64,000 bases of DNA. Source: a virus. Taxonomy: Duplodnaviria; Caudoviricetes. Position numbers and translations under genes: made by a program. Below the pieces are notes generated by a model that saw nothing but the letters and a program-made list of their open reading frames with translations, had not been told where the DNA came from and searched no databases. This document shows, piece after piece, positions 1-45,146 of the stretch. The stretch spans positions 32,001 through 96,000 of IMG/VR virus record IMGVR_UViG_3300028549_001457. One strand, 5' to 3'. Position 1 is the first letter of the stretch; each line of letters begins with the position of its first letter.

Positions 1-1
1 A

Positions 2-553
2 CAGGACTTCGCTAGACTTCAGGAAACCCTTCCCGAAGGTGGCGCTCTCGATCTTTCTTCTATCCTGTCCGAAGAAGCCATGGATGAGAAGGCTGAGCAG
101 CTCCCTGAGGGTGGCGAAGGTGAAGACCCAGCGTTGAACTTCATGCCCGAGGGTGATGACTCAGGGGAGCATAAGTCCGCCAGTATTGCGGCTGAGGATG
201 TCGATGATGGATCCTTTGAGCGCGATCTACTCGGTTCGCTCCAGGGGGTTGATTGTGCAGATCAGGCTTCAGACCCAGCCCTGCCTGAAGAAGTTGACCC
301 TCTTCTGAATCAGGTCGATATTGATGAACCTGACTATGCAGACATCCCCTATGACATCTTAGGCGCACTGGCACCCGCTGCTGGCGCACCCAGCAATGTT
401 TCCGCTGCTCCCAAAATGGCTGGGACTTCTAAGGTTGCTTCTGCGCCTAAGACTGCTGGAGCACGATTTGTCCCCTCAGGTGCCATGGCCCCTGCCTCTC
501 AGGACGATCAGCAGGTAACTCGCCTTTCCGCCCTGCTCAAAGATTTCAGCTAA
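2..553 (+). CDS. Acidic scaffold/prohead core-like protein, 5'-truncated by the window edge
   Basis: The frame of ORF 80..553 is open from base 2 (QDFARLQETLPEGG...). Very acidic, low complexity, immediately upstream of the decoration and capsid genes. Confidence 0.5.
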   Translation, partial: QDFARLQETLPEGGALDLSSILSEEAMDEKAEQLPEGGEGEDPALNFMPEGDDSGEHKSASIAAEDVDDGSFERDLLGSLQGVDCADQASDPALPEEVDPLLNQVDIDEPDYADIPYDILGALAPAAGAPSNVSAAPKMAGTSKVASAPKTAGARFVPSGAMAPASQDDQQVTRLSALLKDFS

Positions 554-2168: not shown

Positions 2169-2208
2169 TCTTAAAATGGTTTTGTATCTATATCTGGAGG
2201 TTTAGGCC

Positions 2209-5920: not shown

Positions 5921-6116
5921 ACTGTTCATAACAAAGGAAAGTGATGGTTTTTTGAGGGTATTCTAGATTTTGGCTCCAACATGTACATTTAATATGGTTA
6001 TGGGATTTTTTCCAGTTGTATTTACTCTATAATGGGGGGTGAATCAATCATTTTTTATGTGGTTGTTCACAAAAACATTTTTTTCTTTTAAATGAGCACT
6101 ATAAGGAGCCTCAAAT

Positions 6117-6740
6117 ATGTCAGAACAGACGCACATCTTAAATCGCATGGTGATTTTCACTGAAATCCCTGGAAGCCCACGGCTTCCGCAGGGGACATGC
6201 ATCACCTCCAAAAAGGTTGAGGGGTCTATTGAGTATGACGTTATCGCTCTTACTCCCTCCGGTCAGAGGTATGAGTTCAAGTCCACGCACATTGAAAACC
6301 TAATCAAAACACCCTGGGTTGATTGTGCTGTAGCCCCAACAGTTGAGAAGGTGCCTGCCTCCAAGCCTCCTGTGGAGGTTCCCAATCCTTTCACTCTAGG
6401 GGATGTTGCTTCGGTTGAGCACGGCCTCATGAATGATGCCCTTCCTACTGTGGATGTCACAGGGTCCAGCGCTAGTGAGACTTTTGGGGTGCAAGTAGCT
6501 CCTGAAGTTGAAGTAGCTCCTGAAGTTCCTGAAGTTGAAGTAGCTCCTGAAGTTCCTGAAGTTGAAGTAGCTCCTGAAGTTCCTGAAGTTGAAGTAGCTC
6601 CTGAAGTTCCTGAAGTTGAAGTAGCTCCTGAAGTTGAAGTAGCTCCTGAAGTTGAAGTAGCTCCTGAAGTTGAAGTAGCTCCTGAAGTTGAAGTAGCTCC
6701 TGAAGCCCCCGTAAAATCTCGTAAACCTAAAAAGGGTTAA
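6117..6740 (+). CDS. Hypothetical protein with a Glu/Val/Pro tandem-repeat tail
   Basis: AAGGAG RBS; (EVAPEV/PEV)n region followed by basic tail KSRKPKKG. Confidence 0.75.
6493..6705 (+). repeat. In-frame perfect tandem repeat built from 9-bp blocks GAAGTAGCT and CCTGAAGTT (27-bp and 18-bp units)
   Basis: Directly visible: four 27-bp EVAPEVPEV units, then about five 18-bp EVAPEV units. Confidence 0.95.
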
Positions 6741-11722: not shown

Positions 11723-11785
11723 TGGGTTTTAAGTAATGCGATCATATCTCTACATAGTTCTTTTAATAGATAGACGGAGATCCTC

Positions 11786-12013
11786 GTGCCTCTTTACTCT
11801 CTAGTTTGCACAACTTGCCACGCTAAGGTTTGTAGGGTGTCTACTCCAACCAAGGAGTTCCCGCCCTGTAAAGTGTGTGGGGGGTCTCTAGAATCCGAGA
11901 TTCCCGTGGAGTCTTTAGTCGAGACCCCTGGGAATATGGGTCGTAAATTAGCCCGTCAGTTTGGGCAAAAGAATAAGCAGTTAACCCATAAACATAACAT
12001 TAGGACCACTTAA
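11786..12013 (+). CDS. FmdB-like zinc-ribbon protein
   Basis: MPLYSLVCTTC...CKVCGG pattern. Confidence 0.65.
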   Translation: MPLYSLVCTTCHAKVCRVSTPTKEFPPCKVCGGSLESEIPVESLVETPGNMGRKLARQFGQKNKQLTHKHNIRTT

Positions 12014-16653: not shown

Positions 16654-16692
16654 GAAAAGTGGCTCTCTTTTAAAGGGGGCCACTTTTATTTT
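16654..16692 (+). terminator. Terminator AAAAGTGGC...GCCACTTTT
   Basis: Inverted repeat with T-tail after the 16638 stop. Confidence 0.7.
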
Positions 16693-16758
16693 TGTATCTA
16701 TTTAAGGGTTCTTTAATGGTATATCCCAGAAGTTGTTCCGTTTTTTGTTTTTGATAGT

Positions 16759-19560: not shown

Positions 19561-19926
19561 TTGCCCCTGATCGAATTCATTTGCCCTCAATGTAGTCTAG
19601 CTTGGGCTCATAGGTCCCCAACTATTTCTAGTGAACATAATACCCAGGTTTGCAAAAGGTGTGGAGCTACTGTAGCAAGACAGGGGCTTCCTTCCTCTCT
19701 TGCTATTCAAAGGGCCGGGACAGCATCTGCTACTACGGACCATATTGTTGGACAAGATGCCGCTCAACGCTGGGATGAGTTCCATGGGAAAAAAGAGGCT
19801 AGGGACTCCATCCGTAAAGAACTAGGGACACAGGCACTCTCCCAGACCTCTGATGGGACGTTTACGGCTGCTTCCCAAGAGCGTCTACAAACGCGCAAGC
19901 AAGCATATAAATTCCTAAATGAATAA
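19561..19926 (+). CDS. FmdB-like zinc-ribbon protein with a helical C-terminus
   Basis: MPLIEFICPQC...CKRCG; GGAGG RBS. Confidence 0.65.
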   Translation: MPLIEFICPQCSLAWAHRSPTISSEHNTQVCKRCGATVARQGLPSSLAIQRAGTASATTDHIVGQDAAQRWDEFHGKKEARDSIRKELGTQALSQTSDGTFTAASQERLQTRKQAYKFLNE

Positions 19927-19996: not shown

Positions 19997-22900
19997 ATGG
20001 CCAGTAACCTACCTGCAGGGTATAATCCTCCAAGTGTCTTCACACAGACCTCCATTGATTTTGCCCAGCCCATTGTCTACGGAAACAACAAGACCGTAAC
20101 TATCATTGGTGTGGCTGATGAGACTAAGTCAGCGGTTGCTGTTGAAATGATTCGTGGATCGAGTTCCACCCTTGACAACCCCATTTATGGTTATGATGTG
20201 TCCTCGGATGTTACTGGGACCAACGCAACGTTCCAAGTCAGACCCTTCCCTATCGTGGATGGAACTGGGGTTGGGAGAGTCACCAAGGATCCTACGTCAG
20301 TTACTGTGTATGTTAATGGTGAGATCGCTAATGTAGTGTCCGTAGATGGTGCGATGGGTCTTATCACCCTCCAGACACCTCCCATGCTGAATGACATTGT
20401 AACCATTAATTACTACTTCAAGAAGAAGGATACCTTTATTTCTGGTGAGGATCTTTCTTCAGCGGTTCCTGTGTCAGCCAAGCTAACCCAGGCTCTTACA
20501 TCAGGCGCAAACCCCACTACGCTACACCTCTCCCTGACTAACCCCGGCCCCATGAGTAATTATATTTCATCAACCGGGAAGGGTGTCTCAATTCTCTTTA
20601 GGAATACCAGCGTTGGGTCTGGGGTTAACAACGCCGTGCAGGGTAATGGTACGGACACCCTTACTATTGATGTGCGTAATGCCCCGGTAGCCCCCGCCAC
20701 TGAAGGGACCATTCGTACAGCTAGCGAGTTAGTTGCATTAATCAATACTTATGCCTTTACCCTTTCTGGGGGTCAGGTTATCGCTTCTTATACTGGGAGC
20801 AACCTCCAGGTTGATCCTGCGGTTCTAAGCGCTACTGCGGTTGGGTTTGCTGGCGGTATCGGCCAGTCTTCCGCTAAGGTCTTCCAGGTAGAAAACCTCC
20901 CCATAGTTGATGGCACCAACGGGGGTATCACTACTACTACCGCAGCTCACATTAGCGCCTATGTAAACTCACATCAGGTGGTTGTAAAATCCGTAGATGG
21001 CATTACTGGCCTCTTCACGCTAGAAAACCCAGTCCCTGAGGGTGCCACTCTGACCGTGGATTATTACACCAATACTTACCGAGATACAGCAGATACACTC
21101 CCCTATAAGGATGCCATCAGTGTGCAGCAGTGTGGTTTTAGCGCACGAGGTATTGATTTCATTGCTGATTCTGATTTTGTGTTAGCAAATGATACGATTC
21201 ATTGGGGTAACTCTGCGGTAGTTTCTTCGGTATCTACAACCTCTACCTACACACCCTTTGGACCTAAGATCACCACTCAGGTATACGATAACAAAGTTTA
21301 CCTCGTTAAAACGTCCCAGGGTGCTTGTGATGGTCAGAATATCGTCTTCACACTACCCTCTCCCCCCATGGACGGGGCTGGTAATGGCATCGTAACCGAT
21401 GACCCCGAGAAGATCGTTGCGTATGTTGGTGTTGATGCCTACCATGCGTATCAGAATGGCCCCGTGGCTGTTATTCGGGTTACCGGAGCTACCTCGCAGT
21501 TTATGCTGCAGAGCGCACCTCCTGCAAATACCAACGTGTATGTAACCTACTACGAGTCTCTGATCAATGATGCTACTATCACGCTCACTTGCGTGGCATC
21601 AGGTCCTGCCCAAATCGGAACCTACACCGCAGTCTCCTCTAAGGGGGCCGTGCTTGGGTATTCCATCGACCAGAACGTTTCTAATGCCGATTTTGGACTT
21701 TCCTCATTGATTTTCCCAAACTCTGGCCGTGCTGATCTCATGGGTGTTCCAGGATACTCTCCTCAGGAGGTCATTACGCTGACCTTCACGGATTCCTTCA
21801 ACTACACCGTGACATCTGATCTTGGTGCGGCAGGGACCCACGGGACAGGTTGCCTGAACCAGACTTATATTGATGCCCTTACAGGTGTTCGCTTCACCCT
21901 CTTAGATCCTTCTTCGGGTGCCGATCTAACCGCCTTTGGTTGGACAAGCCCTGTTAGCAGCCCCTATGTCTTTGCAGCGGGTGACACCATTACTCTAACC
22001 GGGGTATCTTCTTTCACCACGGGTAATTTTGAGCGGCTCTTCATCCCTGGCGTTAAGATGGTTGTGAGTGATGCGTTGGGTGTGGCTTCTGGGGATACCG
22101 CACAAGTGGCCACTTACAATAAGGCTGGTAATGAGCCTAATATTGGTGACGTATACTATGTGACGTATACATATGCTAAGCCAGCTTCGGCTTATGACCT
22201 CCAAGTATACTTTAGTACTCAGGAGGAGAACGTCTACGCGGATTATGGCTACCCCAGCCCCTCAAACAAGCTTGCTTTAGCCGCTTGGGTGGCATTCCGT
22301 AATGGTGCTAAGGTTGTGGGCCTTCTACAGGTTACCAAGGATTATGGCCTTACAGATGCCAGCGACTCTAAGTATTATGCCGCTTTAACCAAGCTCCAGA
22401 CGCTTTACCCTGGGATGTCCCGCAAGCCTCAGATTATTGTTCCTCTGAATACTTCCCAGAGTTTTATCCCTTACCTCAAGAAGCATGTGGAAACTCAGTC
22501 TTCCATTAAAATGCGTGGGGAGTGCGTTGGGTTCTTTGGCTTCGCTAATAACACAAACCCCTCCACGGTTATCTCTCTTTGTCAGGCAAATAGCTCTGAG
22601 CGCATGGTTGCTGTTTATCCTGATGGTGGTATTATCACTATCACCGATAATTACGGCAATAGTCGTGATGTGGTTGTGGATGGTAGCTTTGTGGCAGTTG
22701 CTGTGGCTTCTCTGTATGGGGATCCTCAGTGGGATGTTGCAACTCCTCGCACCCGTAAGCCCCTGTATGGCTTTAAGAGGCTCTTCCGCCGCCTTGATCC
22801 CAATGTCCTCAATTCAGTGGCTCAGGCAGGTTGCACCCTAGTGGAACAGGTTGGCGTGACTACTCGTGTTCGTCATGCTATCACCACGGACCCCAGCAAT

Positions 22901-23203
22901 GTGCTTTCCGTGCAGCCTAGTGTGACCTTCCTCAAGGACGAAATTCAGGCTGACCTTCGTGATCTCCTTGATCCTTTTGTCGGGAAGAAGTTCCTCAACT
23001 CGGTTCTTACTGATATGAAGTCCAAGATTGTTTCCTACCTTAAATCCAAGATTGACTCCGAGATTATCCAGACCTACGGAACCATCACCGTGTCTCGTGA
23101 TGAGTCTGATTCTCGTATTGCTCGTGTGCAGGCGTCCTACATTCCTGTAGGTGAGCTTACTTATGTCATGTGCGACCTGTTAATAAGGTCCCGTGCAGAG
23201 TAA
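19997..23203 (+). CDS. Contractile tail sheath protein (1068 aa)
   Basis: N-terminal GYNPPSVFTQT; C-terminal sheath domain (GCTLVEQ...VRHAITTD...SYIPVGELTYV); AGGAG RBS. Confidence 0.9.
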   Translation: MASNLPAGYNPPSVFTQTSIDFAQPIVYGNNKTVTIIGVADETKSAVAVEMIRGSSSTLDNPIYGYDVSSDVTGTNATFQVRPFPIVDGTGVGRVTKDPTSVTVYVNGEIANVVSVDGAMGLITLQTPPMLNDIVTINYYFKKKDTFISGEDLSSAVPVSAKLTQALTSGANPTTLHLSLTNPGPMSNYISSTGKGVSILFRNTSVGSGVNNAVQGNGTDTLTIDVRNAPVAPATEGTIRTASELVALINTYAFTLSGGQVIASYTGSNLQVDPAVLSATAVGFAGGIGQSSAKVFQVENLPIVDGTNGGITTTTAAHISAYVNSHQVVVKSVDGITGLFTLENPVPEGATLTVDYYTNTYRDTADTLPYKDAISVQQCGFSARGIDFIADSDFVLANDTIHWGNSAVVSSVSTTSTYTPFGPKITTQVYDNKVYLVKTSQGACDGQNIVFTLPSPPMDGAGNGIVTDDPEKIVAYVGVDAYHAYQNGPVAVIRVTGATSQFMLQSAPPANTNVYVTYYESLINDATITLTCVASGPAQIGTYTAVSSKGAVLGYSIDQNVSNADFGLSSLIFPNSGRADLMGVPGYSPQEVITLTFTDSFNYTVTSDLGAAGTHGTGCLNQTYIDALTGVRFTLLDPSSGADLTAFGWTSPVSSPYVFAAGDTITLTGVSSFTTGNFERLFIPGVKMVVSDALGVASGDTAQVATYNKAGNEPNIGDVYYVTYTYAKPASAYDLQVYFSTQEENVYADYGYPSPSNKLALAAWVAFRNGAKVVGLLQVTKDYGLTDASDSKYYAALTKLQTLYPGMSRKPQIIVPLNTSQSFIPYLKKHVETQSSIKMRGECVGFFGFANNTNPSTVISLCQANSSERMVAVYPDGGIITITDNYGNSRDVVVDGSFVAVAVASLYGDPQWDVATPRTRKPLYGFKRLFRRLDPNVLNSVAQAGCTLVEQVGVTTRVRHAITTDPSNVLSVQPSVTFLKDEIQADLRDLLDPFVGKKFLNSVLTDMKSKIVSYLKSKIDSEIIQTYGTITVSRDESDSRIARVQASYIPVGELTYVMCDLLIRSRAE

Positions 23204-23221: not shown

Positions 23222-23255
23222 AATACAAAAGGCCTCAGAAGAGGCCTTTTGTATT
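23222..23255 (+). terminator. Perfect 15-bp stem terminator AATACAAAAGGCCTC-agaa-GAGGCCTTTTGTATT
   Basis: Directly visible after the sheath gene. Confidence 0.9.
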
Positions 23256-23341
23256 TAGTATTCCCACCAGAGGCTTTAATGCTCACGAAAGTTATTTAAT
23301 TCCTTTCTTTGAATGGGCTGTTTTTCTAGGGGTTCATAAAC

Positions 23342-24745
23342 ATGCGTGATTATTTAGAATTAGACACGACACCTATCGATGAGCCCTGTGCTCAAGTTGG
23401 ATCTGAGGACTACTCTAAAAATGCACGATTAGAGTGTAAAGCTCTGGCCGCACAACTAATTCGCGTCTTTGGGGAGCCCCCTGCGGGAACCTCTTATACG
23501 GTTCGCTCCAATCCGCATGACTTTGGGACCTACCTAGAGCTTGCTATTCGTTTTGATGACGAAGATGAGGTTGGGTCTAACTATGCCTATGAGGTTGAGG
23601 GCAACTTACCTCAGGTCTGGGATGCTGAAGCTAAATCCTTTCTGGCATCTGGGGGCTACTCCGTTAAAGGTGAGTTGGATTCCACGGACTCGCGTTGGGC
23701 GTCTCGAATGGTTCGAAAAGAAGCCTCTCGTATGTCTAGCTATAAGTTAGCAGATTTTGTTGAAGATTTAGGTGATGAAGATCCCTCTGAGTCAGAATAC
23801 ATTGTTTCTAAGACATACGAGGTTGTTACACAAGAATCTGCCGAAGAGGGTGACTTTGCAGATTCGGGGTTTGTTTTTCAAGATGAGCCTATGGATCGCT
23901 CTGATGTGGTGCGTGAGCTTAGGCGTGAGGGATACATCTCTCCTAGTGCTTCCTTCCTAGGGGGGCTGCGCTGGGTGTCAACGGAGCCCGAGCAAGACTA
24001 TTCCGATGGGAGCTACACCACATACTCCCTGCACATTAAAGATATTTCCGGAGACGAATGGAAGTCGCTTCTGGTAGAAGCGGGTCTTTTTAGAAGTATG
24101 GGCATTACTGGGGGATCCAAACGATCTGTCTATGATGACCCCGACCCTATTGAAGAACCCTATAATTATGATACTGACCCTGGACCCTCCTATCCGGGTA
24201 GTAATGTGCAGGCATCTGTGAAGAAGGCTTACGGAGATGATGATGGGTTTAGTGACTATAATGATTATCTAGACGGGGATGACCTGGAGAACCTGGGTCA
24301 ACAGGAATCCTGGGAGCATTCTAGAGCTGAGATGGCAGATGATGACCATGACGAGGAAGTGGAAGAAGATTCTGAGATCCGGGTAGATACGTGGTTTGAA
24401 CGTGATCGCGCTAGTATTGTTGTTTATAAGGGAGATACCGAAATTGCAGAATGGTGGGATGATGACGTTCGCCAGATGTTCGAGGACGGTTTCTTCAACA
24501 ATAGAAATCTAGAGAAATCTGTTATTGATTATTGTAAGTCTGTTGGTATTATTCGAGAACCCAGGAGGTTTGATGAAACCTCGCATTATCGTTCATCATC
24601 CAGATTAGTTTATGAGGATTGTGGGGTCCCTCCAAATACTTCAACAGCTACTATGGACCACAATTCGGAGCTTAGGGCTTTAGCCGCTCAGATCCAATCT
24701 ATGAGTGGAACTTCTTTTAACCCCAATAGTCCTCTCAAGGATTAG
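23342..24745 (+). CDS. Highly acidic modular protein (putative internal head protein)
   Basis: 467 aa, Asp/Glu-rich modules separated by basic Ser/Ala linkers; C-terminal motif shared with the next ORF. Confidence 0.7.
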   Translation: MRDYLELDTTPIDEPCAQVGSEDYSKNARLECKALAAQLIRVFGEPPAGTSYTVRSNPHDFGTYLELAIRFDDEDEVGSNYAYEVEGNLPQVWDAEAKSFLASGGYSVKGELDSTDSRWASRMVRKEASRMSSYKLADFVEDLGDEDPSESEYIVSKTYEVVTQESAEEGDFADSGFVFQDEPMDRSDVVRELRREGYISPSASFLGGLRWVSTEPEQDYSDGSYTTYSLHIKDISGDEWKSLLVEAGLFRSMGITGGSKRSVYDDPDPIEEPYNYDTDPGPSYPGSNVQASVKKAYGDDDGFSDYNDYLDGDDLENLGQQESWEHSRAEMADDDHDEEVEEDSEIRVDTWFERDRASIVVYKGDTEIAEWWDDDVRQMFEDGFFNNRNLEKSVIDYCKSVGIIREPRRFDETSHYRSSSRLVYEDCGVPPNTSTATMDHNSELRALAAQIQSMSGTSFNPNSPLKD

Positions 24746-24773
24746 ATTTCTTCTTTGGTATAAGGAGCATATT

Positions 24774-25544
24774 ATGCTTAAAATTGCCGCCGCCGATAAA
24801 TCTTGGCTACAGCACCTCGTCTTGGCAGAACGCCGCCGCCTTGCTAGCCTTCACCACGCTGCGCTTATCGCTAACACTGAAACCGCTATTCAGGATCATG
24901 AAGGTGATGCTGGCTACGAGGCCGCGTTATCCGATAAGAAGCAGGCTCCTAAGACAGCCGCATTTGGTGGCCCCAATAACCCAAGGGTTGGTCAGAATGA
25001 CCTTGAGACTTTCAATGTTGCTTGTGAGCATGTGGAAGATCAGCATCCAGAAATGGACCCAGCCAAGGTGTTTAATATCCTAAATGCCGTGATGGAGCCC
25101 GGTCTTTCTATTACCGAGCTTCTCACTAAGGCTGATCCCATGCTTCGCACGGCTTCTAAGACTAAGAAAGCTGATGCCGAGAAGGACAACACCGATACAG
25201 CTATTGAAGATCACAAGGGGGACCCCATTTATGAGAACGCACTGGATCCCAAGGTTGGGGGCCGTAAGCGTTCAGGTTTGGTTGATGACGCCAAAGAATT
25301 TGAACAGAATCCAGCAGCCTGGAGGCAGAAGAACCCAGGTCAGTTAGACCCTCCCCCTTCTGAACTAAAATTTTCATCAAAAAAGACCTCCGCTGACCTC
25401 AAGGTGGATGATTCTGGTAATCCCCCCAACACCTCAAAGGCTACCCAGGATCATGACTTTGAACTGAAGGCTCTCGCAGCTCAGGTTCAGAGTATGCTAA
25501 GTGGTAAAACAGCATTTGATCCCAACGATCCCCTTAAGGATTAA
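24774..25544 (+). CDS. Modular hypothetical protein with repeated NTxxAxxDH motifs
   Basis: Start ATG 24774 with AAGGAG RBS (track start 24705); C-terminus paralogous to that of 23342..24745. Confidence 0.7.
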   Translation: MLKIAAADKSWLQHLVLAERRRLASLHHAALIANTETAIQDHEGDAGYEAALSDKKQAPKTAAFGGPNNPRVGQNDLETFNVACEHVEDQHPEMDPAKVFNILNAVMEPGLSITELLTKADPMLRTASKTKKADAEKDNTDTAIEDHKGDPIYENALDPKVGGRKRSGLVDDAKEFEQNPAAWRQKNPGQLDPPPSELKFSSKKTSADLKVDDSGNPPNTSKATQDHDFELKALAAQVQSMLSGKTAFDPNDPLKD

Positions 25545-25550
25545 TAAGTC

Positions 25551-25589
25551 TATATTAAAAAGCCCCACTAAGTGGGGCTTTTTAATATA
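25551..25589 (+). terminator. Perfect 18-bp stem bidirectional terminator
   Basis: TATATTAAAAAGCCCCAC-taa-GTGGGGCTTTTTAATATA. Confidence 0.9.
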
Positions 25590-25645
25590 TATAGTTTTCC
25601 TTTTAATGGAGTTTTCATTTTTAACTCCAAGAAAGGAGTTCAGTT

Positions 25646-25859: not shown

Positions 25860-26246
25860 ATGGGGGACTTTCTAATGGCTTCAATTTTACATGTTAACCA
25901 GATTCCTGATCAGGGCATTATGCGGGTTCGTTTTCGCTGGGATGCTATTGACCCAACTGATGCTGTGCTCACACGTAAACTAGGGGAGCCCAGGGTAGCT
26001 ACTGGTGGGGTTTTTACGGACCCAACTGATTCTACATTTACTTGGCAAGAGCCTGATGGCTATACTCCTTTATTTTCCTTTGGAGCAGCCTTCCTGGAAA
26101 ATGGATATGATTCAACCAAAGACCCGCTAGCCCAAAGACGGGCAACTGTTTGGGGAACTGTTATGAAGGCTAGGTTAGAGGCCTCTCTTCTTAAACTAAG
26201 AGCTGCTGGGGATACATTTTCTCTTGATACCTCTGTTAACATCTAA
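25860..26246 (+). CDS. Hypothetical protein (possibly structural)
   Basis: Intact ORF upstream of the tube gene; start may be ATG 25875. Confidence 0.6.
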   Translation: MGDFLMASILHVNQIPDQGIMRVRFRWDAIDPTDAVLTRKLGEPRVATGGVFTDPTDSTFTWQEPDGYTPLFSFGAAFLENGYDSTKDPLAQRRATVWGTVMKARLEASLLKLRAAGDTFSLDTSVNI

Positions 26247-26360: not shown

Positions 26361-27041
26361 ATGCCACTGGATACTGGATATCTATTCCGCCAAGGGGCAA
26401 ACGGCCAAACCAAAACCGTGACCTCGCAGCGCAACCGAATTTACTCCCCTCACGTTGGACAAACTGGTCTTAGGATTATTGGCGTCCTAGGTGACTTTAA
26501 GGTTAATGAGAGCCGTAAGATTGATACTGTTCGTGGTATTGGTTTTGGGGATCAGATTGCCGAGTTGGTTCCCGGAAACACGGATGCCACCAAGATCTCA
26601 GTTACTCGTACGGCCCTGTATCTCCAGAACCTCATGCAGACTTTTGGGTATAAGGCAGGCTCCTCGGGCCTTGTTCGCTCTCTTAAACATCACAAGTGGC
26701 CCTTTGACATCCGTCAGGAAATTGTTTTCTCCGAGATTGCTTCTGAGGCACAGGATGCTGGGCAGTCCCAAAGGTGGGCTCCTGAGAACCCTGAGGGTGG
26801 TTTAAATAACACGGGTGATACAGGTGATATCCGTGCGATTTTCACGATCTTTGAGGGATGCTGGATGGATTCTTATGACTACACATTTAATAATGAAAAC
26901 GTGGTTGTCACTGAGAATTGCGGCATTCAGGTCAGTGACATCTTTGATGGTAATGACTCTGTCTATGGCATGTTCCTAGACAGCGGAAACAATAAATCTG
27001 ATGCAACAGGTCGTTCCATGAGATTCTCCGGGAATAACTAA
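26361..27041 (+). CDS. Tail tube protein
   Basis: IGVLGDFKVNESRKIDTVRGIG...ELVPG; WPFDIRQ; FEGCWMDSYDY...TENCGIQV; RBS identical to the sheath RBS. Confidence 0.85.
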   Translation: MPLDTGYLFRQGANGQTKTVTSQRNRIYSPHVGQTGLRIIGVLGDFKVNESRKIDTVRGIGFGDQIAELVPGNTDATKISVTRTALYLQNLMQTFGYKAGSSGLVRSLKHHKWPFDIRQEIVFSEIASEAQDAGQSQRWAPENPEGGLNNTGDTGDIRAIFTIFEGCWMDSYDYTFNNENVVVTENCGIQVSDIFDGNDSVYGMFLDSGNNKSDATGRSMRFSGNN

Positions 27042-27109: not shown

Positions 27110-27469
27110 ATGACTGTCAAGACTTTATGCTCTTCCGTGGTAGGGCTTTTAGGGGCTATCCTGGATGTCTTCAAGAAACTAGTTTCTCTTAGGCCCATTG
27201 AATACTTTAAGGGTCTCACTAATAAGAACAACCCTCATTCATCCCATCGATTTGTAAATCTCATTTGGGGGTGTGGTTCCTTCTTTATGTTTTGGGCAAT
27301 TAGCTTTATCCAGGTTACCCGAGACGTAGCTTTTAGATTTGGGGCTTTAGAGTATACCTTTATTGGTGCAATGGCTGGTATTAGCACCATATCTGCGATT
27401 GTGTCCAAGAAGAAGGATCAACCCAAAACCCCTTGTTCAGATACTGTTGCTTCTGAGGATGACAAGTAA
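27110..27469 (+). CDS. Small membrane protein (holin-like)
   Basis: 119 aa, two hydrophobic segments, charged C-terminus (SKKKDQ...EDDK). Confidence 0.4.
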   Translation: MTVKTLCSSVVGLLGAILDVFKKLVSLRPIEYFKGLTNKNNPHSSHRFVNLIWGCGSFFMFWAISFIQVTRDVAFRFGALEYTFIGAMAGISTISAIVSKKKDQPKTPCSDTVASEDDK

Positions 27470-29222
27470 TTTTTTCGGTATATTGATAGAGAGGTTGTTT
27501 AACTTGTTCATACAGCCAGAGTGTCAAGAGTTATCTTTTGAGACAGCAGGACTCACTTGGTATCTAAAAAACCGTCCCTTTTTTGAGACAGCAACCTTTT
27601 TAGCTGATCATCAAGGTGATCTAATACTGAGTAAAATAGCGGCTAAGGTCTCGGGGGTGTCTGGTGGGTCCTCCAGACATCAGCTTTCTCCAGAACAAGC
27701 TCGGTTGGTTATTTCTAAGCTAACAGCACCTCAGCTCATGGAACTGGATTTAAAATTTAAAAAAGCCGTTACTAAATTCATAAAGAGAGATCTTTCGTTT
27801 GTTGTACCGGCTCCATTAGGGCTTCCTCATTGGAAGCAGCCTCTGGCCGCTAAGGATCGCCTTTCTTCCGAGAACAGAGGTCTTCTGGATCATGCCATAC
27901 AGAAGGCTCATCATGAGCTACGCAACCCCGATCTAGCTAAATCTAGAGCACTATCTAACTTTGAGACTGTACAGCGAGGTTTAGTTAAAGCAAAGCAAGA
28001 GGAGGCAGATCGCCAAGAGGATCCAACACGGGCGTATGGAGATCTCTACCCAATGAGTGATCAATCTTCGCCTTCGCCCCTTAAGCACACCCAGGAGGTT
28101 AAAGAGCGTTTGTTCGTGTTATCGGATACACTTCAGCTTCTCTGGCCGATTATTTCCAGTAATCTCTTAACACTTCATGGGACCTGGGCGGGGAACTCTG
28201 TTGCGCTACGCTATGTGAGCAAGAAGGAAATTCTAGCTTTAAACCAAATGGTTTCTACGCAGTCTGTTAGGGAGCGGTTATTTTGTGCAATGTCTATTGT
28301 TTCCATAAATGATACGTGGTGTCTATCATCATCTACTCATGTAAACCCTCTGGCACTCAGCGTGGTAGATAGCTGGGCTGAGGAAGACCTATCAAGATTT
28401 TATGATATCTTTTCAGGTATTCGATCCTTCGCAGAATCTCTAATGCCCTATATTGAAGCTCTGCCCTTTACTAAGCTTTTTAGAGATTTCTGGGACCTTA
28501 ATCGTGGTAGGGATAGGTGGTGGCAAGAATGCTACACAGGTGTCCCAGGGACAGGGACACTTCCCCCCTCTGAGCACATTGATCTTTTCTCCCAGGAATG
28601 TCTCCTTGATGAAACAGCGGTTGGGAAGATTGAGGCCGATGATACTCTTTCTTTCCAAGTAGCTGGTATGAGTCATGAATTAGCTCAGGGGATTCAGAAG
28701 AAAAACACTGAGTTAGTTGAGGCCAGAGGCCTGCAGATTAATTATATGTTGTTCAATGAGGTGCCTGAAATTAAGGAAACGCAGGAGGGCGTCCTAGCTC
28801 TTCCCGGAGAGACCAGTAGGGATGAGATCATCTCCGTTGCTCAGGATATGCTTCAGGGTAAGATGGATTTCCACGATACTATGTTAGCTGTTATGCGCCA
28901 GCGCAAGGAGGCCATGCAAACAACCTCCTTCGCGCCCCCTGAGCCCCTTCCAGCCCCTGCAAGTGATGCTGACGCCTACGAGGGTGGGTCCCATTATGCA
29001 ACGTCTCAGGAAATCCAGGAGATGCATCGAGCTTCCACTGCACATAGGGTGGCTGTGGATAACATCACTCTGGCGTTCTCTCAGGATGTTGTTGAAAATA
29101 TTGCTAAGGCTAGGAAACGAAGCCTTCTCATCCAGGGCGTAGATCCCTACCACGAAAGGGACGAATCTGAGGACCTTGGGAGGGCCTCGTTGATTAGTAG
29201 GGATAAGTCCTATAGAGAATGA
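27363..29222 (+). CDS. Putative tail assembly chaperone-like protein (true start probably about 27459-27504)
   Basis: Between tube and tape measure; helical; CAMSIVSIND segment resembles NVLCQLND in the next ORF. Confidence 0.4.
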   Translation: MVQWLVLAPYLRLCPRRRINPKPLVQILLLLRMTSNFFGILIERLFNLFIQPECQELSFETAGLTWYLKNRPFFETATFLADHQGDLILSKIAAKVSGVSGGSSRHQLSPEQARLVISKLTAPQLMELDLKFKKAVTKFIKRDLSFVVPAPLGLPHWKQPLAAKDRLSSENRGLLDHAIQKAHHELRNPDLAKSRALSNFETVQRGLVKAKQEEADRQEDPTRAYGDLYPMSDQSSPSPLKHTQEVKERLFVLSDTLQLLWPIISSNLLTLHGTWAGNSVALRYVSKKEILALNQMVSTQSVRERLFCAMSIVSINDTWCLSSSTHVNPLALSVVDSWAEEDLSRFYDIFSGIRSFAESLMPYIEALPFTKLFRDFWDLNRGRDRWWQECYTGVPGTGTLPPSEHIDLFSQECLLDETAVGKIEADDTLSFQVAGMSHELAQGIQKKNTELVEARGLQINYMLFNEVPEIKETQEGVLALPGETSRDEIISVAQDMLQGKMDFHDTMLAVMRQRKEAMQTTSFAPPEPLPAPASDADAYEGGSHYATSQEIQEMHRASTAHRVAVDNITLAFSQDVVENIAKARKRSLLIQGVDPYHERDESEDLGRASLISRDKSYRE

Positions 29223-29258
29223 ATTCCTTAACCGCCTTTTTACAGGGAGACTACTTAA

Positions 29259-29927
29259 ATGGATCGCACCGTTTCTTTGCCCATGGATCTTTTGGAGACC
29301 TTGGAACAGCATTTACACGCAGGTATGGATTCCACCAAGCTCTTTGAGGTGGCCCCTGGATTTTCTGTAGCATTTAGAACCCTTACAGGGGAGGAAGAGA
29401 TTGAGTGCAGAACTTCCGCCGCTGAATTTAGGGGACCCGCGTATATTTACACGTATAAGACAAAAGTCCTCTCCAATGTTCTTTGCCAGCTTAACGATAT
29501 TAAGCTACCCCCAAGTGCTACAATTAAGATGCCCAAGAAGCGCACAGATGATCTAGGTAGGGTGGAGGAGATTCTTACAGACGTCCCCCTAGCATCTCAT
29601 CTAGAGGGGATCATTCTCACCTGGAGTAAGGGCCTCATTGACATTTGCTTTAAGCTTTGGTCAAAGCATCAAGAAGAGCAGCTCTATAAGTATATCGCTC
29701 CGTTTAACCAGGATGATCTCTTTACGGTTGAAGAGAAAATGCTAGCTAAAGAATATGAACAACTTCTAAATGAGAATAACTCTGCAACGGCTGCTATGAC
29801 ACCCTCTGAATTAGTGGTTGCTGTTCAGAACACGACCCCCGGCTCAGACCTCGTTAAAATTGGGGCTCAGGTAACCAAGCATGTAGACCCTCATATTGAT
29901 TTTAGTGAAGAGGCTGAAGAGAAATAG
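29259..29927 (+). CDS. Tail assembly chaperone
   Basis: FRTLTGEEE...KVLSNVLCQLND; directly before the tape measure gene. Confidence 0.55.
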   Translation: MDRTVSLPMDLLETLEQHLHAGMDSTKLFEVAPGFSVAFRTLTGEEEIECRTSAAEFRGPAYIYTYKTKVLSNVLCQLNDIKLPPSATIKMPKKRTDDLGRVEEILTDVPLASHLEGIILTWSKGLIDICFKLWSKHQEEQLYKYIAPFNQDDLFTVEEKMLAKEYEQLLNENNSATAAMTPSELVVAVQNTTPGSDLVKIGAQVTKHVDPHIDFSEEAEEK

Positions 29928-44593: not shown

Positions 44594-44866
44594 ATGGCAG
44601 ATGTAGGGTTAGCTCAGTTGGGAAGCCTTTCCTCGCATGGGGGTGTGATTACTTCCGTATCCTCCACAATCTTGTGTGAGGGAAAGCTAGTGGCGTGTGT
44701 AGGGGATGTTCACACATGCCCGATAAAAGGTCATGGGTCCACCCCTATTGTAGATGGCAACCCAGGTGTTATTGTAAATGGAAAAATTCTAGCACGTATT
44801 GGTAGCACAACAGGCTGTGGTGCTACCATAACCACTGGCTCAGTTTCAGTCACCACAAATGGATAG
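44594..44866 (+). CDS. PAAR-repeat spike tip protein
   Basis: AQLGSLSSHGG, VACVGDVHTCPIKGH, ARIGSTTGCGA. Confidence 0.9.
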   Translation: MADVGLAQLGSLSSHGGVITSVSSTILCEGKLVACVGDVHTCPIKGHGSTPIVDGNPGVIVNGKILARIGSTTGCGATITTGSVSVTTNG

Positions 44867-45146
44867 GGGGTCTAACATGTCTGAAGAAACCGAAGCAGCT
44901 TTGAAAGAAATCAACACGGGGTCCACTTTAGATGGCCTTTTTAGAATGGGATTCACCATTCTAGGGGACTCCCGTGACTTTACAAATGGATCTATTCAGG
45001 TGACGCTAGGAAGGGGTCAGGAGCGCCTTTCCTGGACCTTGCCCATGAAGGTCGCAAAGGTTGGTGTGGACACTCCTGAGGGCGCATCTTACCTCCAGAT
45101 CCCCATTGATCATATTTCTTTTGATGTGGTCTATCCGATCAAGTAA
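44859..45146 (+). CDS. Small hypothetical protein
   Basis: Intact ORF in the baseplate operon; start possibly 44877. Confidence 0.55.
   Translation: MDRGSNMSEETEAALKEINTGSTLDGLFRMGFTILGDSRDFTNGSIQVTLGRGQERLSWTLPMKVAKVGVDTPEGASYLQIPIDHISFDVVYPIK

What the first reader, a model, noticed from the sequence alone, without database searches (positions are those of the whole stretch)
23342..25544. Two otherwise unrelated acidic proteins end in the same ~40-aa tag, with four NTxxAxxDH motifs
Seen: ...PPNTSTATMDHNSELRALAAQIQSMSGTSFNPNSPLKD* (about 24625-24745) and ...PPNTSKATQDHDFELKALAAQVQSMLSGKTAFDPNDPLKD* (about 25415-25544). Protein similarity is high while synonymous positions have diverged, implying selection. 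The second protein also has NTETAIQDHEGD..YE.AL and NTDTAIEDHKGD..YE.AL. The pair sits between the sheath and tube genes, bounded by strong terminators. Inference: a portable C-terminal targeting signal (capsid loading, scaffold or tail binding) appended to variable cargo, possibly injected acidic DNA-mimic or anti-defence domains.
Basis: partly seen in the sequence, partly recalled or inferred. Interest (0 to 1): 0.65.

Follow-up and report, generated by a model that had tools for sequence, protein, structure and literature searches.

The report
Shared docking tag, jumbo-phage bead proteins
Two neighbouring genes of an uncultured 279-kb phage, wedged between its tail-sheath and tail-tube genes, encode mostly floppy acidic proteins that end in the same conserved 40-residue tail, itself a variant of a 19-residue peptide repeated six times in three proteins; the peptide is most likely a docking handle for one common partner, but where it leads is not shown.

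Summary
P0001 (window 23342-24745, 467 aa) and P0002 (24774-25544, 256 aa) share only their last ~55-70 residues (37/71 identical, E 3e-16). Of the 33 identical residues in the aligned 53-codon tail, 21 use different codons. The tail is a C-terminal variant of a repeated peptide, NTxxAxxDHxGDxxYxxAL. The 279-kb genome holds six copies in three proteins; the third lies outside the window.

Relatives keep both genes in the same place, and the N-helix, the repeats and the tail are better conserved than the one folded domain. The family is tiny: 23 hits among 1.84 billion representative proteins. It has no Pfam, PHROG or PDB match.

New here: three relatives carry the repeat inside a linker of a large InPase-domain polyvalent protein encoded beside terminase and portal, and a P0001-like tagged protein shares a 118-residue domain with one of them.

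I read the motif as a short docking peptide that brings modular accessory proteins to one partner, probably a virion or procapsid component (confidence 0.38). A protease-site role, a host target and a tail-assembly role are not excluded. A general portable packaging signal is only partly supported, because just two proteins per genome carry the tail. The scan has noted a different N-terminal tag in this same genome.

The parts
19997..23203 (+). Tail sheath gene (context, 1068 aa)
   Evidence: tblastn: 36% identity over 96% of the length to Tunturiibacter phage Tunturi_5 gp326 tail sheath; C-terminal third matches Bacillus phage G gp178 and mycobacteriophage sheaths.
23222..23262 (+). Terminator hairpin after the sheath gene
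   Evidence: 15-bp stem, -22.4 kcal/mol, z -7.9 against 200 shuffles.
23249..23257 (+). TTGTATTTA, a copy of the phage's recurrent promoter-like motif, 92 nt before the P0001 start
   Evidence: TGTAT[CT][TA] occurs 38 times in intergenic DNA against 14 expected, always oriented with the downstream gene. The longer form TTGTAT[CT]TA also precedes three other accessory cassettes in the structural block. Function as a promoter is inferred.
23342..24745 (+). P0001: 467-aa very acidic protein built of small domains on disordered linkers, ending in the tag
   Evidence: pI 4.23, net charge -58. No Pfam or PHROG family. AlphaFold2 mean pLDDT 51, with three folded islands separated by disordered stretches. 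Orthologues P0016-P0019, P0011 and the L007 upstream ORF.
23342..23650 (+). P0001 domain A (residues 1-103)
   Evidence: Conserved in P0016, P0018, P0019 and P0034. tblastn hit in a gut phage contig, MT836715, 40% identity, E 7e-8. pLDDT 62-81.
23789..24091 (+). P0001 domain B (residues 150-250)
   Evidence: Homologous to a stand-alone 101-aa protein of Pseudomonas phage PspYZU01 (tblastn 44% identity, E 7e-8; Foldseek against BFVD E 2e-4, probability 1.00), which lies in a block of small accessory genes.
24362..24556 (+). P0001 domain C (residues 341-405; WFERDRA...WWDDDVRQMFEDGFF)
   Evidence: 51-63% identical to an internal domain of unrelated multi-domain proteins P0020-P0025, two of which carry PF02643. 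pLDDT 70-84.
24578..24742 (+). P0001 pre-tag and C-terminal tag (residues 413-467; PPNT at 24629)
   Evidence: BLASTP to the P0002 tail E 3e-16. Tag HMM 69 bits. Predicted helix 439-455.
24774..25544 (+). P0002: 256-aa protein (N-helix, repeat 1, three-helix domain, repeat 2, insert, tag)
   Evidence: ATG with AAGGAG 7 nt upstream. Orthologues P0003-P0010, P0026-P0029. AlphaFold2 mean pLDDT 65.
24774..24869 (+). P0002 N-terminal helix module (residues 1-32)
   Evidence: The most conserved part of the protein: mean pairwise identity 0.80 among eight orthologues. Predicted helix 10-32. Also heads the minimal relatives P0027 and P0029-P0032.
24873..24929 (+). Type I repeat 1 (NTETAIQDHEGDAGYEAAL)
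   Evidence: Type I HMM 52 bits. Pairwise identity 0.71.
24990..25163 (+). P0002 central three-helix domain (residues 73-130)
   Evidence: pLDDT about 90. Occurs alone or at the C-terminus of other proteins (P0035, P0036, P0039-P0041). No informative fold match.
25188..25244 (+). Type I repeat 2 (NTDTAIEDHKGDPIYENAL)
   Evidence: Type I HMM 54 bits.
25383..25541 (+). P0002 pre-tag and C-terminal tag (residues 204-256; PPNT at 25422)
   Evidence: Tag HMM 82 bits. Pairwise identity 0.66 among orthologues. Predicted helix 221-242.
25548..25596 (+). Terminator hairpin after P0002
   Evidence: 18-bp stem, -25.2 kcal/mol, z -7.7.
25860..26246 (+). 128-aa protein, homologue of Tunturi_5 gp327 (context)
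   Evidence: tblastn E 1.5e-5. Conserved in L007.
26361..27041 (+). 226-aa probable tail tube protein (context)
   Evidence: 53% identical to Tunturi_5 gp329 'virion structural protein'. Homologous to phage G gp179 and gp180, which lie between the sheath and the tail assembly chaperones.

Best explanation
The tail is not a free-standing tag. It is the C-terminal version of a repeated short linear motif.

- Type I (internal): (P)NT[DE]xAxxDH[KE][GD]DxxY[EV]xAL, often followed by DPKVGS.
- Type II (terminal): PPNTxxATxDHx[FY]ELxxLAxQ[IML]xx[MF], then a short spacer, then [WF][DN]PND[PM][LM][KL]D at the very end of the chain.

These peptides sit in disordered segments of a small, clade-restricted set of modular proteins. 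Those proteins are P0001-like strings of small accessory domains, P0002-like proteins that also carry a conserved N-terminal helix, a third paralogue P3, and, in relatives, the large InPase-domain polyvalent protein encoded next to terminase and portal.

My reading is that the motif is a docking peptide. One partner protein recognises the His/aromatic/Leu core and, for the terminal copy, the free C-terminal Asp, so different proteins are brought to the same place. The most likely destination is a virion or procapsid component. P0001 and P0002 would then be loaded together with the polyvalent protein as internal, possibly ejected, proteins.

Shown here: the motif, its repetition, its selective conservation, its narrow distribution, its insertion into polyvalent-protein linkers, and domain exchange with those proteins.

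Inferred: that it binds a partner, that the partner is a virion part, and any ejection into the host.
For: 1. The tail and the repeats are the selected parts. Among eight orthologues, pairwise identity is 0.80 for the N-helix, 0.71 for repeat 1 and 0.66 for the tag, against 0.43 for the folded three-helix domain and 0.06 for the insert. Synonymous sites have diverged between the two tails.
2. Minimal relatives of 74-145 aa consist only of N-helix, one repeat and the tail, so these short modules carry the function.
3. The last residue is Asp in 19 of 20 distinct tails, all of which end the protein, and PN(D) is nearly fixed, as expected for recognition of a free C-terminus.
4. The motifs lie in regions of low predicted order, flanked by short helices, as short linear motifs do.
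5. Fusion evidence: three of five homologues of the 1309-aa InPase protein (P0037, P0043, P0044) carry a type I repeat in the same linker. In this genome the repeat segment is instead the separate protein P3, 54% identical to the P0037 insert.
6. The InPase protein has Pfam PF18823 (E 6e-24), matches PHROGs named minor head protein and DarB-like antirestriction, and lies two genes before the large terminase and the probable portal. Phage polyvalent proteins of this kind are predicted to be packaged in the capsid (PMC5512222).
7. The tagged P0001-like protein P0016 shares a 118-aa domain (47% identity, E 3e-31) with P0044, directly after that protein's repeat.
8. The P0001-P0002 cassette keeps its place ahead of the tube gene block in two metagenomic relatives.
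Against: - No partner is identified and no virion proteome exists. The nearest cultured relatives, Tunturi_5 and phage G, lack the family, so their data cannot help.
- Only two proteins per genome carry the tail, which is few for an address system.
- The polyvalent protein of this very phage, and P0045, lack the repeat, so the repeat is not required for whatever that protein does.
- The cassette has its own promoter-like motif and terminators, like non-structural cassettes nearby (actin-like gene, GNAT-IbrAB). Its place among tail genes therefore says little about timing or destination.
- The predicted tag helix has only modest confidence (pLDDT about 55-67), and its hydrophobic moment is no higher than in shuffles.
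- Earlier notes of this scan propose a different N-terminal tag as the capsid address in the same genome.
Confidence: 0.38

Rival explanations
1. The repeats are processing signals. The head-maturation protease, or another protease, cuts at or beside each repeat, so P0002, P3 and the polyvalent proteins are chopped into pieces. The repeat marks module borders and does not dock to a partner.
For: - In the polyvalent proteins the repeats sit at module borders and in linkers.
- Each type I repeat 2 is preceded by [AV]A[SA]xKKAD, and each tail by S[KR]Kx[AS][AS]ELK[VY].
- A [KH][KTQ]AS peptide occurs 23 times in the proteome against 6.8 in shuffles. It is concentrated in the InPase protein (4), P3 (3) and the scaffold-like protein between protease and capsid genes (2).
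I see HTAST near the protease N-terminus.
- Multiple cleavage of acidic prohead core proteins is established for T4 and SPN3US (PMC9026906, PMC10052503).
Against: - A conserved unit of 19-35 residues is far longer than known prohead-protease sites.
- The repeat itself is absent from the capsid protein, scaffold-like protein, protease and portal.
- The terminal copy cannot be a border between two modules.
- The KxAS enrichment was found post hoc, and P0002 of this genome matches it only loosely (RTAS, KTSA).
Confidence: 0.17
2. The motif binds a host protein, not a phage one. P0001, P0002, P3 and the polyvalent proteins are host-takeover or anti-defence factors that use a multivalent peptide to engage or titrate one host target, whether they are injected or made after infection.
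For: - Several copies per chain in disordered acidic segments are typical of multivalent peptide decoys.
- Domain B of P0001 is a stand-alone gene in an accessory, non-structural block of PspYZU01.
- The cassette is transcriptionally autonomous, like other accessory cassettes.
- Polyvalent proteins are conflict effectors (PMC5512222).
Against: - The family is confined to a very narrow phage clade.
- The host is unknown, so no target can be named.
- The conserved position inside the tail gene block and the link to a head-associated protein favour a virion context.
Confidence: 0.17
3. P0001 and P0002 are tail-assembly factors. They would be tethers or chaperones whose conserved ends bind sheath, tube or terminator subunits during tail assembly, and they may not remain in the virion.
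For: - The gene lies between sheath and probable tube and stays there in relatives.
- The P0002 family has two conserved ends and a middle that varies from almost nothing to about 200 residues, as a tether would.
Against: - Phage G and Tunturi_5 build related tails without the family.
- The tail-assembly-chaperone position before the tape measure is filled by other genes (window 27363-29927).
- There is no slippery-site or frameshift arrangement.
- The link to the InPase protein beside terminase and portal points to the head.
- P3 is encoded 58 kb away.
Confidence: 0.12
4. Plain paralogy. A C-terminal segment was duplicated from one gene to its neighbour, and its conservation reflects a local structural role such as self-association or hetero-dimerisation of P0001 with P0002, with no addressing function.
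For: - The two carriers are adjacent genes.
- Only two carriers exist per genome.
- The tag contains a predicted helix with a Leu/Val/Met stripe that could pair.
Against: - The same tail is attached to at least four different architectures in relatives.
- The type I repeat also occurs in unlinked genes, P3 and the polyvalent proteins.
- The fixed C-terminal Asp is not explained by helix pairing.
Confidence: 0.12

Closest known systems
Capsid targeting sequence (CTS) of phage T4 internal proteins IPI-III and Alt (Mullaney and Black 1996; reviewed in PMC9026906)
   Same: A short conserved terminal peptide is shared by otherwise unrelated phage proteins. It is thought to let a phage load variable accessory proteins through one interaction.
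   Different: The CTS is N-terminal, about 10 residues long, removed by the gp21 protease, and experimentally sufficient for packaging. The peptide here is C-terminal, about 40 residues long, a variant of an internal repeat, carried by only two proteins per genome, and untested.
Polyvalent proteins of phages and conjugative elements (Iyer, Burroughs, Anand, de Souza, Aravind 2017, PMC5512222), including InPase-domain members (Pfam PF18823)
   Same: P0001 is a string of small mobile domains on disordered linkers, encoded among late genes. Relatives of P0001 exchange a domain and the repeat with a true InPase polyvalent protein encoded beside terminase and portal.
   Different: None of the P0001 or P0002 domains matches a described polyvalent-protein domain in Pfam. 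At 256-467 aa the proteins are small. The repeat and tag are not described in that paper as far as my term searches of it went.
Processed head and ejection proteins of giant phages phiKZ and SPN3US (PMC5694885, PMC10052503, PMC7411985)
   Same: These are jumbo myophages with many internal proteins, paralogue families among them, and propeptides thought to direct incorporation before cleavage.
   Different: The head protease here is only distantly related (PHROG head maturation protease, E 5e-11). The known cut rule of those phages is a three-residue motif ending in Glu, and no shared C-terminal tail is reported. This clade is nearer to phage G and Tunturi_5 than to phiKZ.
C-terminal coat-binding helix-turn-helix of P22-type scaffolding proteins, and C-terminal cargo-loading peptides of encapsulins (from my own knowledge, not checked in a paper here)
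   Same: A short C-terminal peptide docks a protein to the inside of an HK97-fold shell.
   Different: There is no sequence similarity. A separate scaffold-like gene sits between protease and capsid genes in this phage. The genes here are not next to the capsid gene.
N-terminal MLKVS[RK][IL]L tag of the same phage
   Same: It is a second shared terminal peptide on unrelated accessory proteins in the same genome. P0002 begins MLKIAAADK, sharing the first four residues.
   Different: That tag is N-terminal, 8-10 residues long, and found on at least eight proteins clustered at 178-193 kb. It is unrelated in sequence to the NT/DH repeat. Its function is equally unproven.

Membership tests
T4-type capsid targeting sequence | N-terminal propeptide of about 10 residues | tested here: not met
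   The shared module is at the C-terminus and is about 40 residues long.
T4-type capsid targeting sequence | Followed by a prohead-protease site and removed during maturation | tested here: inconclusive
   K/R-x-A/T-S-like peptides precede repeat 2 and the tail, and KxAS is enriched in scaffold-like and polyvalent proteins. The cleavage rule of this protease is unknown and no proteomic data exist.
T4-type capsid targeting sequence | Sufficient to load a foreign protein into the head | not testable with these tools
   This needs a fusion and packaging experiment in a cultured phage of the clade. None is known.
Polyvalent proteins (Iyer et al. 2017) | Two or more unrelated domains in one chain, drawn from a pool shared among phage and plasmid proteins | tested here: met
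   P0001 has three separable domains, each with its own homologues elsewhere. P0016 shares a domain with the InPase protein P0044.
Polyvalent proteins (Iyer et al. 2017) | Contains at least one of the described effector or LPD domains | tested here: not met
   Pfam gives no family for P0001 or P0002 at E up to 0.1. Only the separate 1309-aa protein P0042 has PF18823.
Polyvalent proteins (Iyer et al. 2017) | Encoded among late or packaging genes of a portal-terminase phage | tested here: met
   The cassette lies inside the structural block between the sheath and probable tube genes. Expression timing is not resolved.
Phage scaffolding protein with C-terminal coat-binding domain | Gene adjacent to protease and major capsid genes; acidic helical protein | tested here: not met
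   The protease-to-capsid interval holds a different 468-aa acidic protein (genome 31147-32553). P0001 and P0002 lie 22 kb downstream.
Tail assembly chaperone (gpG/gpGT type) | Located between tube and tape-measure genes, with a programmed frameshift | tested here: not met
   The cassette is upstream of the tube gene. The two frames are separated by a stop codon and a 28-nt spacer with a ribosome-binding site. Other genes occupy the pre-tape-measure position.
DNA-mimic anti-restriction proteins (Ocr, ArdA type) | Folded, rigid acidic surface imitating B-DNA | tested here: not met
   The acidic stretches of P0001 (residues 105-150 and 250-342) are predicted to be disordered (pLDDT below 50). 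There is no sequence or fold match to known mimics.

The most novel reading that the evidence does not exclude
This jumbo-phage clade uses a C-terminal address built from a repeated His-containing peptide as a second protein-loading system, separate from the N-terminal MLKVSRIL-type tag. It would load modular accessory proteins, together with the InPase polyvalent protein, into the virion for delivery into the host. The minimal natural carriers of 74-125 aa define a portable two-ended handle that could be used to load foreign cargo.
Probability: 0.2. Interest if true: 0.65.

Novelty: new variant of a known kind. Interest (0 to 1): 0.42.

Why it matters
How giant phages choose which of their many accessory proteins enter the particle is largely unknown outside T4. 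A conserved peptide that links small tagged proteins to a polyvalent head-associated protein gives a concrete, short handle to test. The candidate residues to mutate are the His, the aromatic residue, the Leu and the terminal Asp.

If the peptide is a loading signal, it would be a C-terminal, repeat-derived counterpart of the T4 capsid targeting sequence. It would also show that one phage can run two address systems.

If it is a protease signal or a host-binding peptide, it still defines an undescribed short-motif family in phage conflict proteins.

The family is narrow and no cultured member is known, which limits immediate impact.

Tried and rejected
Searches that found nothing:
- Pfam and PHROGs on P0001 and P0002: no family.
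- PDB sequence search with the family profile: nothing.
- Foldseek of the P0002 model against the PDB: only a generic three-helix-bundle likeness to RuvA domain III, E above 1.
- ESM Atlas: no usable feature hits for either protein, and low-confidence models.
- Megablast and tblastn against the phage collection: no relative of P0002, and only single-domain hits for P0001.
- IMG/VR scans with P0002 and with the family alignment: nothing besides the genome itself.
- Five distant IMG/VR relatives found through the tube protein, and Tunturi_5: none carries the family. L014 showed no comparable gene order.
- tblastn of the NCBI-sourced polyvalent protein P0043 against the phage collection: no related record.

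Ideas tested and dropped:
- The P0002 N-terminus resembles the N-arm of the capsid protein (KIAAA...RRR): BLASTP finds no alignment.
- The tag helix is strongly amphipathic: its hydrophobic moment equals that of shuffles.
- CTTTAATG is a late promoter: only five intergenic copies, one of them inside a terminator loop.
- TGTAT-type motifs can tell expression timing: they precede both structural and non-structural genes.
- P3 is the scaffolding protein: another acidic protein holds that position.
- The repeat's His is a phospho-acceptor for the nearby histidine pseudokinase (L001:5654-7567): the idea rests only on proximity and an A-x-x-S-H-E resemblance in some variants, and I could not test it.

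Full report
**What is there**

The window is bases 32001-96000 of a 278,785-bp virus record with 45.5% G+C. Earlier notes of this scan describe it as an uncultured jumbo phage from microbial mats. All large genes in the window lie on the + strand and form a structural block.

- The 1068-aa protein at 19997-23203 is a tail sheath. It is 36% identical over 96% of its length to gp326 of Tunturiibacter phage Tunturi_5, and its C-terminal third matches gp178 of Bacillus phage G.
- The 226-aa protein at 26361-27041 is 53% identical to Tunturi_5 gp329. It is also homologous to phage G gp179 and gp180, the virion proteins that lie between the sheath and the tail assembly chaperones. I call it the probable tube.
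- Between them lie P0001 (23342-24745, 467 aa) and P0002. P0002 runs 24774-25544 (256 aa) from an ATG with AAGGAG upstream; the GTG at 24705 listed by the ORF finder overlaps P0001.
- A 15-bp hairpin (-22.4 kcal/mol, z -7.9) follows the sheath gene, and an 18-bp hairpin (-25.2 kcal/mol, z -7.7) follows P0002.

**The observation**

BLASTP between the two proteins finds one significant segment, the last 71 residues (37 identical, E 3e-16). In the 53 aligned codons of the tail, 33 residues are identical and 21 of those use different codons. Nucleotide identity is 58%.

The pattern N[TS]xxAxx[DE]H occurs five times in the six-frame translation of the genome, plus once with Ser in place of Ala. All six copies are in three proteins: P0001 (1), P0002 (3) and P3 (2). 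P3 is a 240-aa protein at genome 115096-115818, outside the window. A family profile and two motif-only HMMs run without speed filters find no other carrier in the genome.

**Anatomy**

Listing every copy in the family separates two forms:

- Type I is internal: (P)NT[DE]xAxxDH[KE][GD]DxxY[EV]xAL, often followed by DPKVGS.
- Type II is terminal: PPNTxxATxDHx[FY]ELxxLAxQ[IML]xx[MF], then a spacer of 5-7 residues, then [WF][DN]PND[PM][LM][KL]D as the last residues of the protein.

Type II is type I with three residues missing after DH and an extension. The 'tag' is therefore the terminal member of a repeat family.

*P0002* reads, in order (AlphaFold2 with 15 sequences, mean pLDDT 65):

| Residues | Element |
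|---|---|
| 10-32 | N-terminal helix |
| 34-52 | repeat 1 |
| 74-129 | confident three-helix domain, pLDDT about 90 |
| 139-157 | repeat 2 |
| about 163-203 | variable insert |
| 217-256 | tail, with a helix at 221-242 |

*P0001* is very acidic (pI 4.2, net -58). It consists of three small folded islands separated by long disordered acidic stretches, and then the tail (mean pLDDT 51). Each island has its own relatives:

- Domain A: a gut phage contig.
- Domain B: a stand-alone 101-aa protein of Pseudomonas phage PspYZU01, in a block of small accessory genes.
- Domain C: internal parts of several unrelated multi-domain proteins.

*P3* has a related N-terminal helix and two type I repeats. These are followed by an acidic helical stretch and a basic C-terminus that ends with a similar AFDP.

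**Relatives**

A word-indexed search of 5.8 billion proteins gave ten relatives of P0002 and ten of P0001; of the latter, four are full-length and six match only domain C. A full HMMER scan of 1.84 billion representatives with the family profile gave only 23 hits. The family is real but narrow.

Two metagenome contigs keep the gene order: P0001-like, P0002-like, small proteins, a 127-aa protein (present in L007 only), a 222-226-aa tube-position protein, a membrane protein, and in L008 the tape measure. One of them (L008) has two P0002 paralogues, one only 125 aa long.

Across relatives the tail ends proteins of at least four builds:

- P0002-like proteins.
- Minimal proteins of N-helix plus repeat plus tail (74, 125 and 145 aa).
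- N-helix plus zinc ribbon plus tail.
- P0001-like strings of domains. Some of these have zinc ribbons or extra type I repeats.

Among eight P0002 orthologues, mean pairwise identity is 0.80 for the N-helix, 0.71 for repeat 1 and 0.66 for the tail. It is 0.43 for the folded domain and 0.06 for the insert. The short modules are thus the most constrained parts.

Phage G and Tunturi_5 lack the family. Phage G goes straight from sheath to tube-position proteins. Tunturi_5 has an unrelated 828-aa acidic protein there, annotated 'DNA ejection protein' in the record; the paper describes Phold and HHpred annotation and reports no proteomics.

**The link to a polyvalent protein**

One profile hit, P0037 (1410 aa), is a homologue of a 1309-aa protein of this genome, P0042 (genome 215023-218946). 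P0037 has about 75 extra residues inserted near P0042 residue 254, and the insert is 54% identical to the two-repeat part of P3.

A further search found that three of five homologues (P0037, P0043, P0044) carry a type I repeat in that same linker, after SKLVAQLRKTA. P0042 and P0045 do not.

P0042 has the Pfam InPase domain PF18823 (E 6e-24). It matches PHROGs named minor head protein, virion structural protein and DarB-like antirestriction. It lies two genes before an intein-bearing large terminase and the probable portal. PF18823 belongs to the polyvalent proteins of Iyer et al. 2017, who argue that the phage members are packaged in the capsid and delivered with the DNA (PMC5512222).

In addition, the tagged P0001-like protein P0016 shares a 118-residue domain with P0044 (47% identity, E 3e-31), placed directly after that protein's repeat. 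The tagged small proteins and the polyvalent protein therefore draw on one pool of domains and motifs.

**Interpretation**

The properties are those of a short linear docking motif:

- It is short and lies in disordered context.
- It occurs in several copies per chain.
- It is more conserved than the neighbouring folded domain.
- It has moved between unrelated chains.
- Its terminal copy has a nearly fixed last residue.

I therefore read it as a handle for one common partner. Two facts point to a virion or procapsid partner: the fusion into proteins of a head-associated kind, and the conserved place in the structural block. I give this 0.38.

The evidence is circumstantial, for these reasons:

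- The cassette is an autonomous unit. A copy of the recurrent promoter-like motif TTGTATTTA lies 92 nt before P0001, right after the terminator. The same motif precedes three other accessory cassettes in this block and many non-structural genes, so timing cannot be read from it.
- Only two proteins per genome carry the tail.
- The polyvalent protein of this very phage lacks the repeat.

**Rivals**

- *Processing signal (0.17).* Repeats sit at module borders, and K/R-x-A/T-S-like peptides precede repeat 2 and the tail. [KH][KTQ]AS is three-fold enriched and concentrated in the InPase protein, P3 and the scaffold-like protein. However, this pattern was found after the fact, the repeat is much longer than known protease sites, and the repeat is absent from the capsid protein, the scaffold-like protein, the protease and the portal.
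- *Host-binding multivalent peptide (0.17).* I cannot separate this from docking to a phage part without experiments.
- *Tail-assembly tether (0.12).* This fits the position and the two-ended design of P0002. It does not fit the absence of the family from related tails or the link to the head-associated protein.
- *Plain paralogy with self-association (0.12).* This does not explain the spread of the motif to unlinked genes.

**Comparison with known systems**

The closest concept is the T4 capsid targeting sequence (PMC9026906). The peptide here fails its defining features of N-terminal position and short length, and removal by the protease and sufficiency for packaging are untested.

P0001 behaves like a small polyvalent protein but contains none of the described domains. 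The proteins are not scaffolding proteins, not tail assembly chaperones and not folded DNA mimics.

I found no Pfam, PHROG or PDB entry for the motif. I did not find it described in the papers I searched, but I ran no search for the motif itself.

**Verdict**

I class this as a new variant of a known kind, namely shared terminal peptides on phage accessory proteins. Interest is moderate, limited by the narrow distribution and the lack of a cultured host-phage pair.

Noticed in passing
genome 215023-218946 (L017:7024-10953), outside the window: A 1309-aa InPase-domain (PF18823) polyvalent protein with two Cys-rich repeats near its C-terminus lies two genes before the large terminase. Three of its five homologues carry a type I NT/DH repeat in one linker.
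   Followed up: partly
genome 220425-223718 (L017:12426-15719): The large terminase gene appears to carry an intein with a LAGLIDADG homing endonuclease (Pfam Intein_splicing, LAGLIDADG_3 and Hom_end; PHROG terminase large subunit).
   Followed up: no
window 44594-44866: A 90-aa ORF lies directly after the 867-aa spike-like protein, in a stretch my 110-aa ORF cut-off had left as a gap. It has Gly/Val-rich repeats and conserved Cys/His and looks like a PAAR-type spike tip. A 95-aa ORF follows at 44859-45146. Neither was checked against Pfam.
   Followed up: no
window 2183-2191, 6016-6024, 16692-16700, 23249-23257: TTGTAT[CT]TA lies in the gap ahead of four accessory cassettes inside the structural block, in three of them just after a terminator: the genes after the capsid gene, the gene at 6117, the actin-like gene and the P0001-P0002 cassette. 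Genome-wide, TGTAT[CT][TA] occurs 38 times in intergenic DNA against 14 expected, always in the sense orientation.
   Followed up: partly
window 24774-24800, and genome 178917-192934: P0002 starts MLKIAAADK, sharing MLK[IV] with the MLKVS[RK][IL]L N-terminal tag carried by seven proteins clustered at 178-193 kb. The likeness stops after four residues and may be chance.
   Followed up: partly
genome 31147-32553 (reaches window 1-553): The 468-aa protein between the head protease and the capsid gene has N-terminal zinc ribbons followed by a long acidic Gly/Asp/Glu-rich disordered region. It is scaffold-like and has four KxAS peptides.
   Followed up: partly
L008:1379-1636 and L007:1382-1645: Relatives have an 85-87-aa Cys/His-rich small protein directly after the P0002-like gene. 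It is missing from this phage, where only 101 nt separate P0002 from the next gene.
   Followed up: no
L001:5654-9819 (genome about 111.6-115.8 kb): P3 lies three genes downstream of the hybrid histidine pseudokinase noted earlier in this scan, after a 186-aa protein and a TSCPD-domain protein, and upstream of tail-fibre-like genes. Some repeat variants read A-x-x-S-H-E, faintly like a kinase H-box. There is no evidence of a connection.
   Followed up: no
window 11723-12013 and 2122-2287: Two 'intergenic' gaps contain short Cys-rich reading frames (CxxC...CxxC) that look like unannotated zinc-ribbon mini-proteins. Similar zinc ribbons recur in the 121-aa protein at 19561-19926 and in several relatives of P0001.
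   Followed up: no
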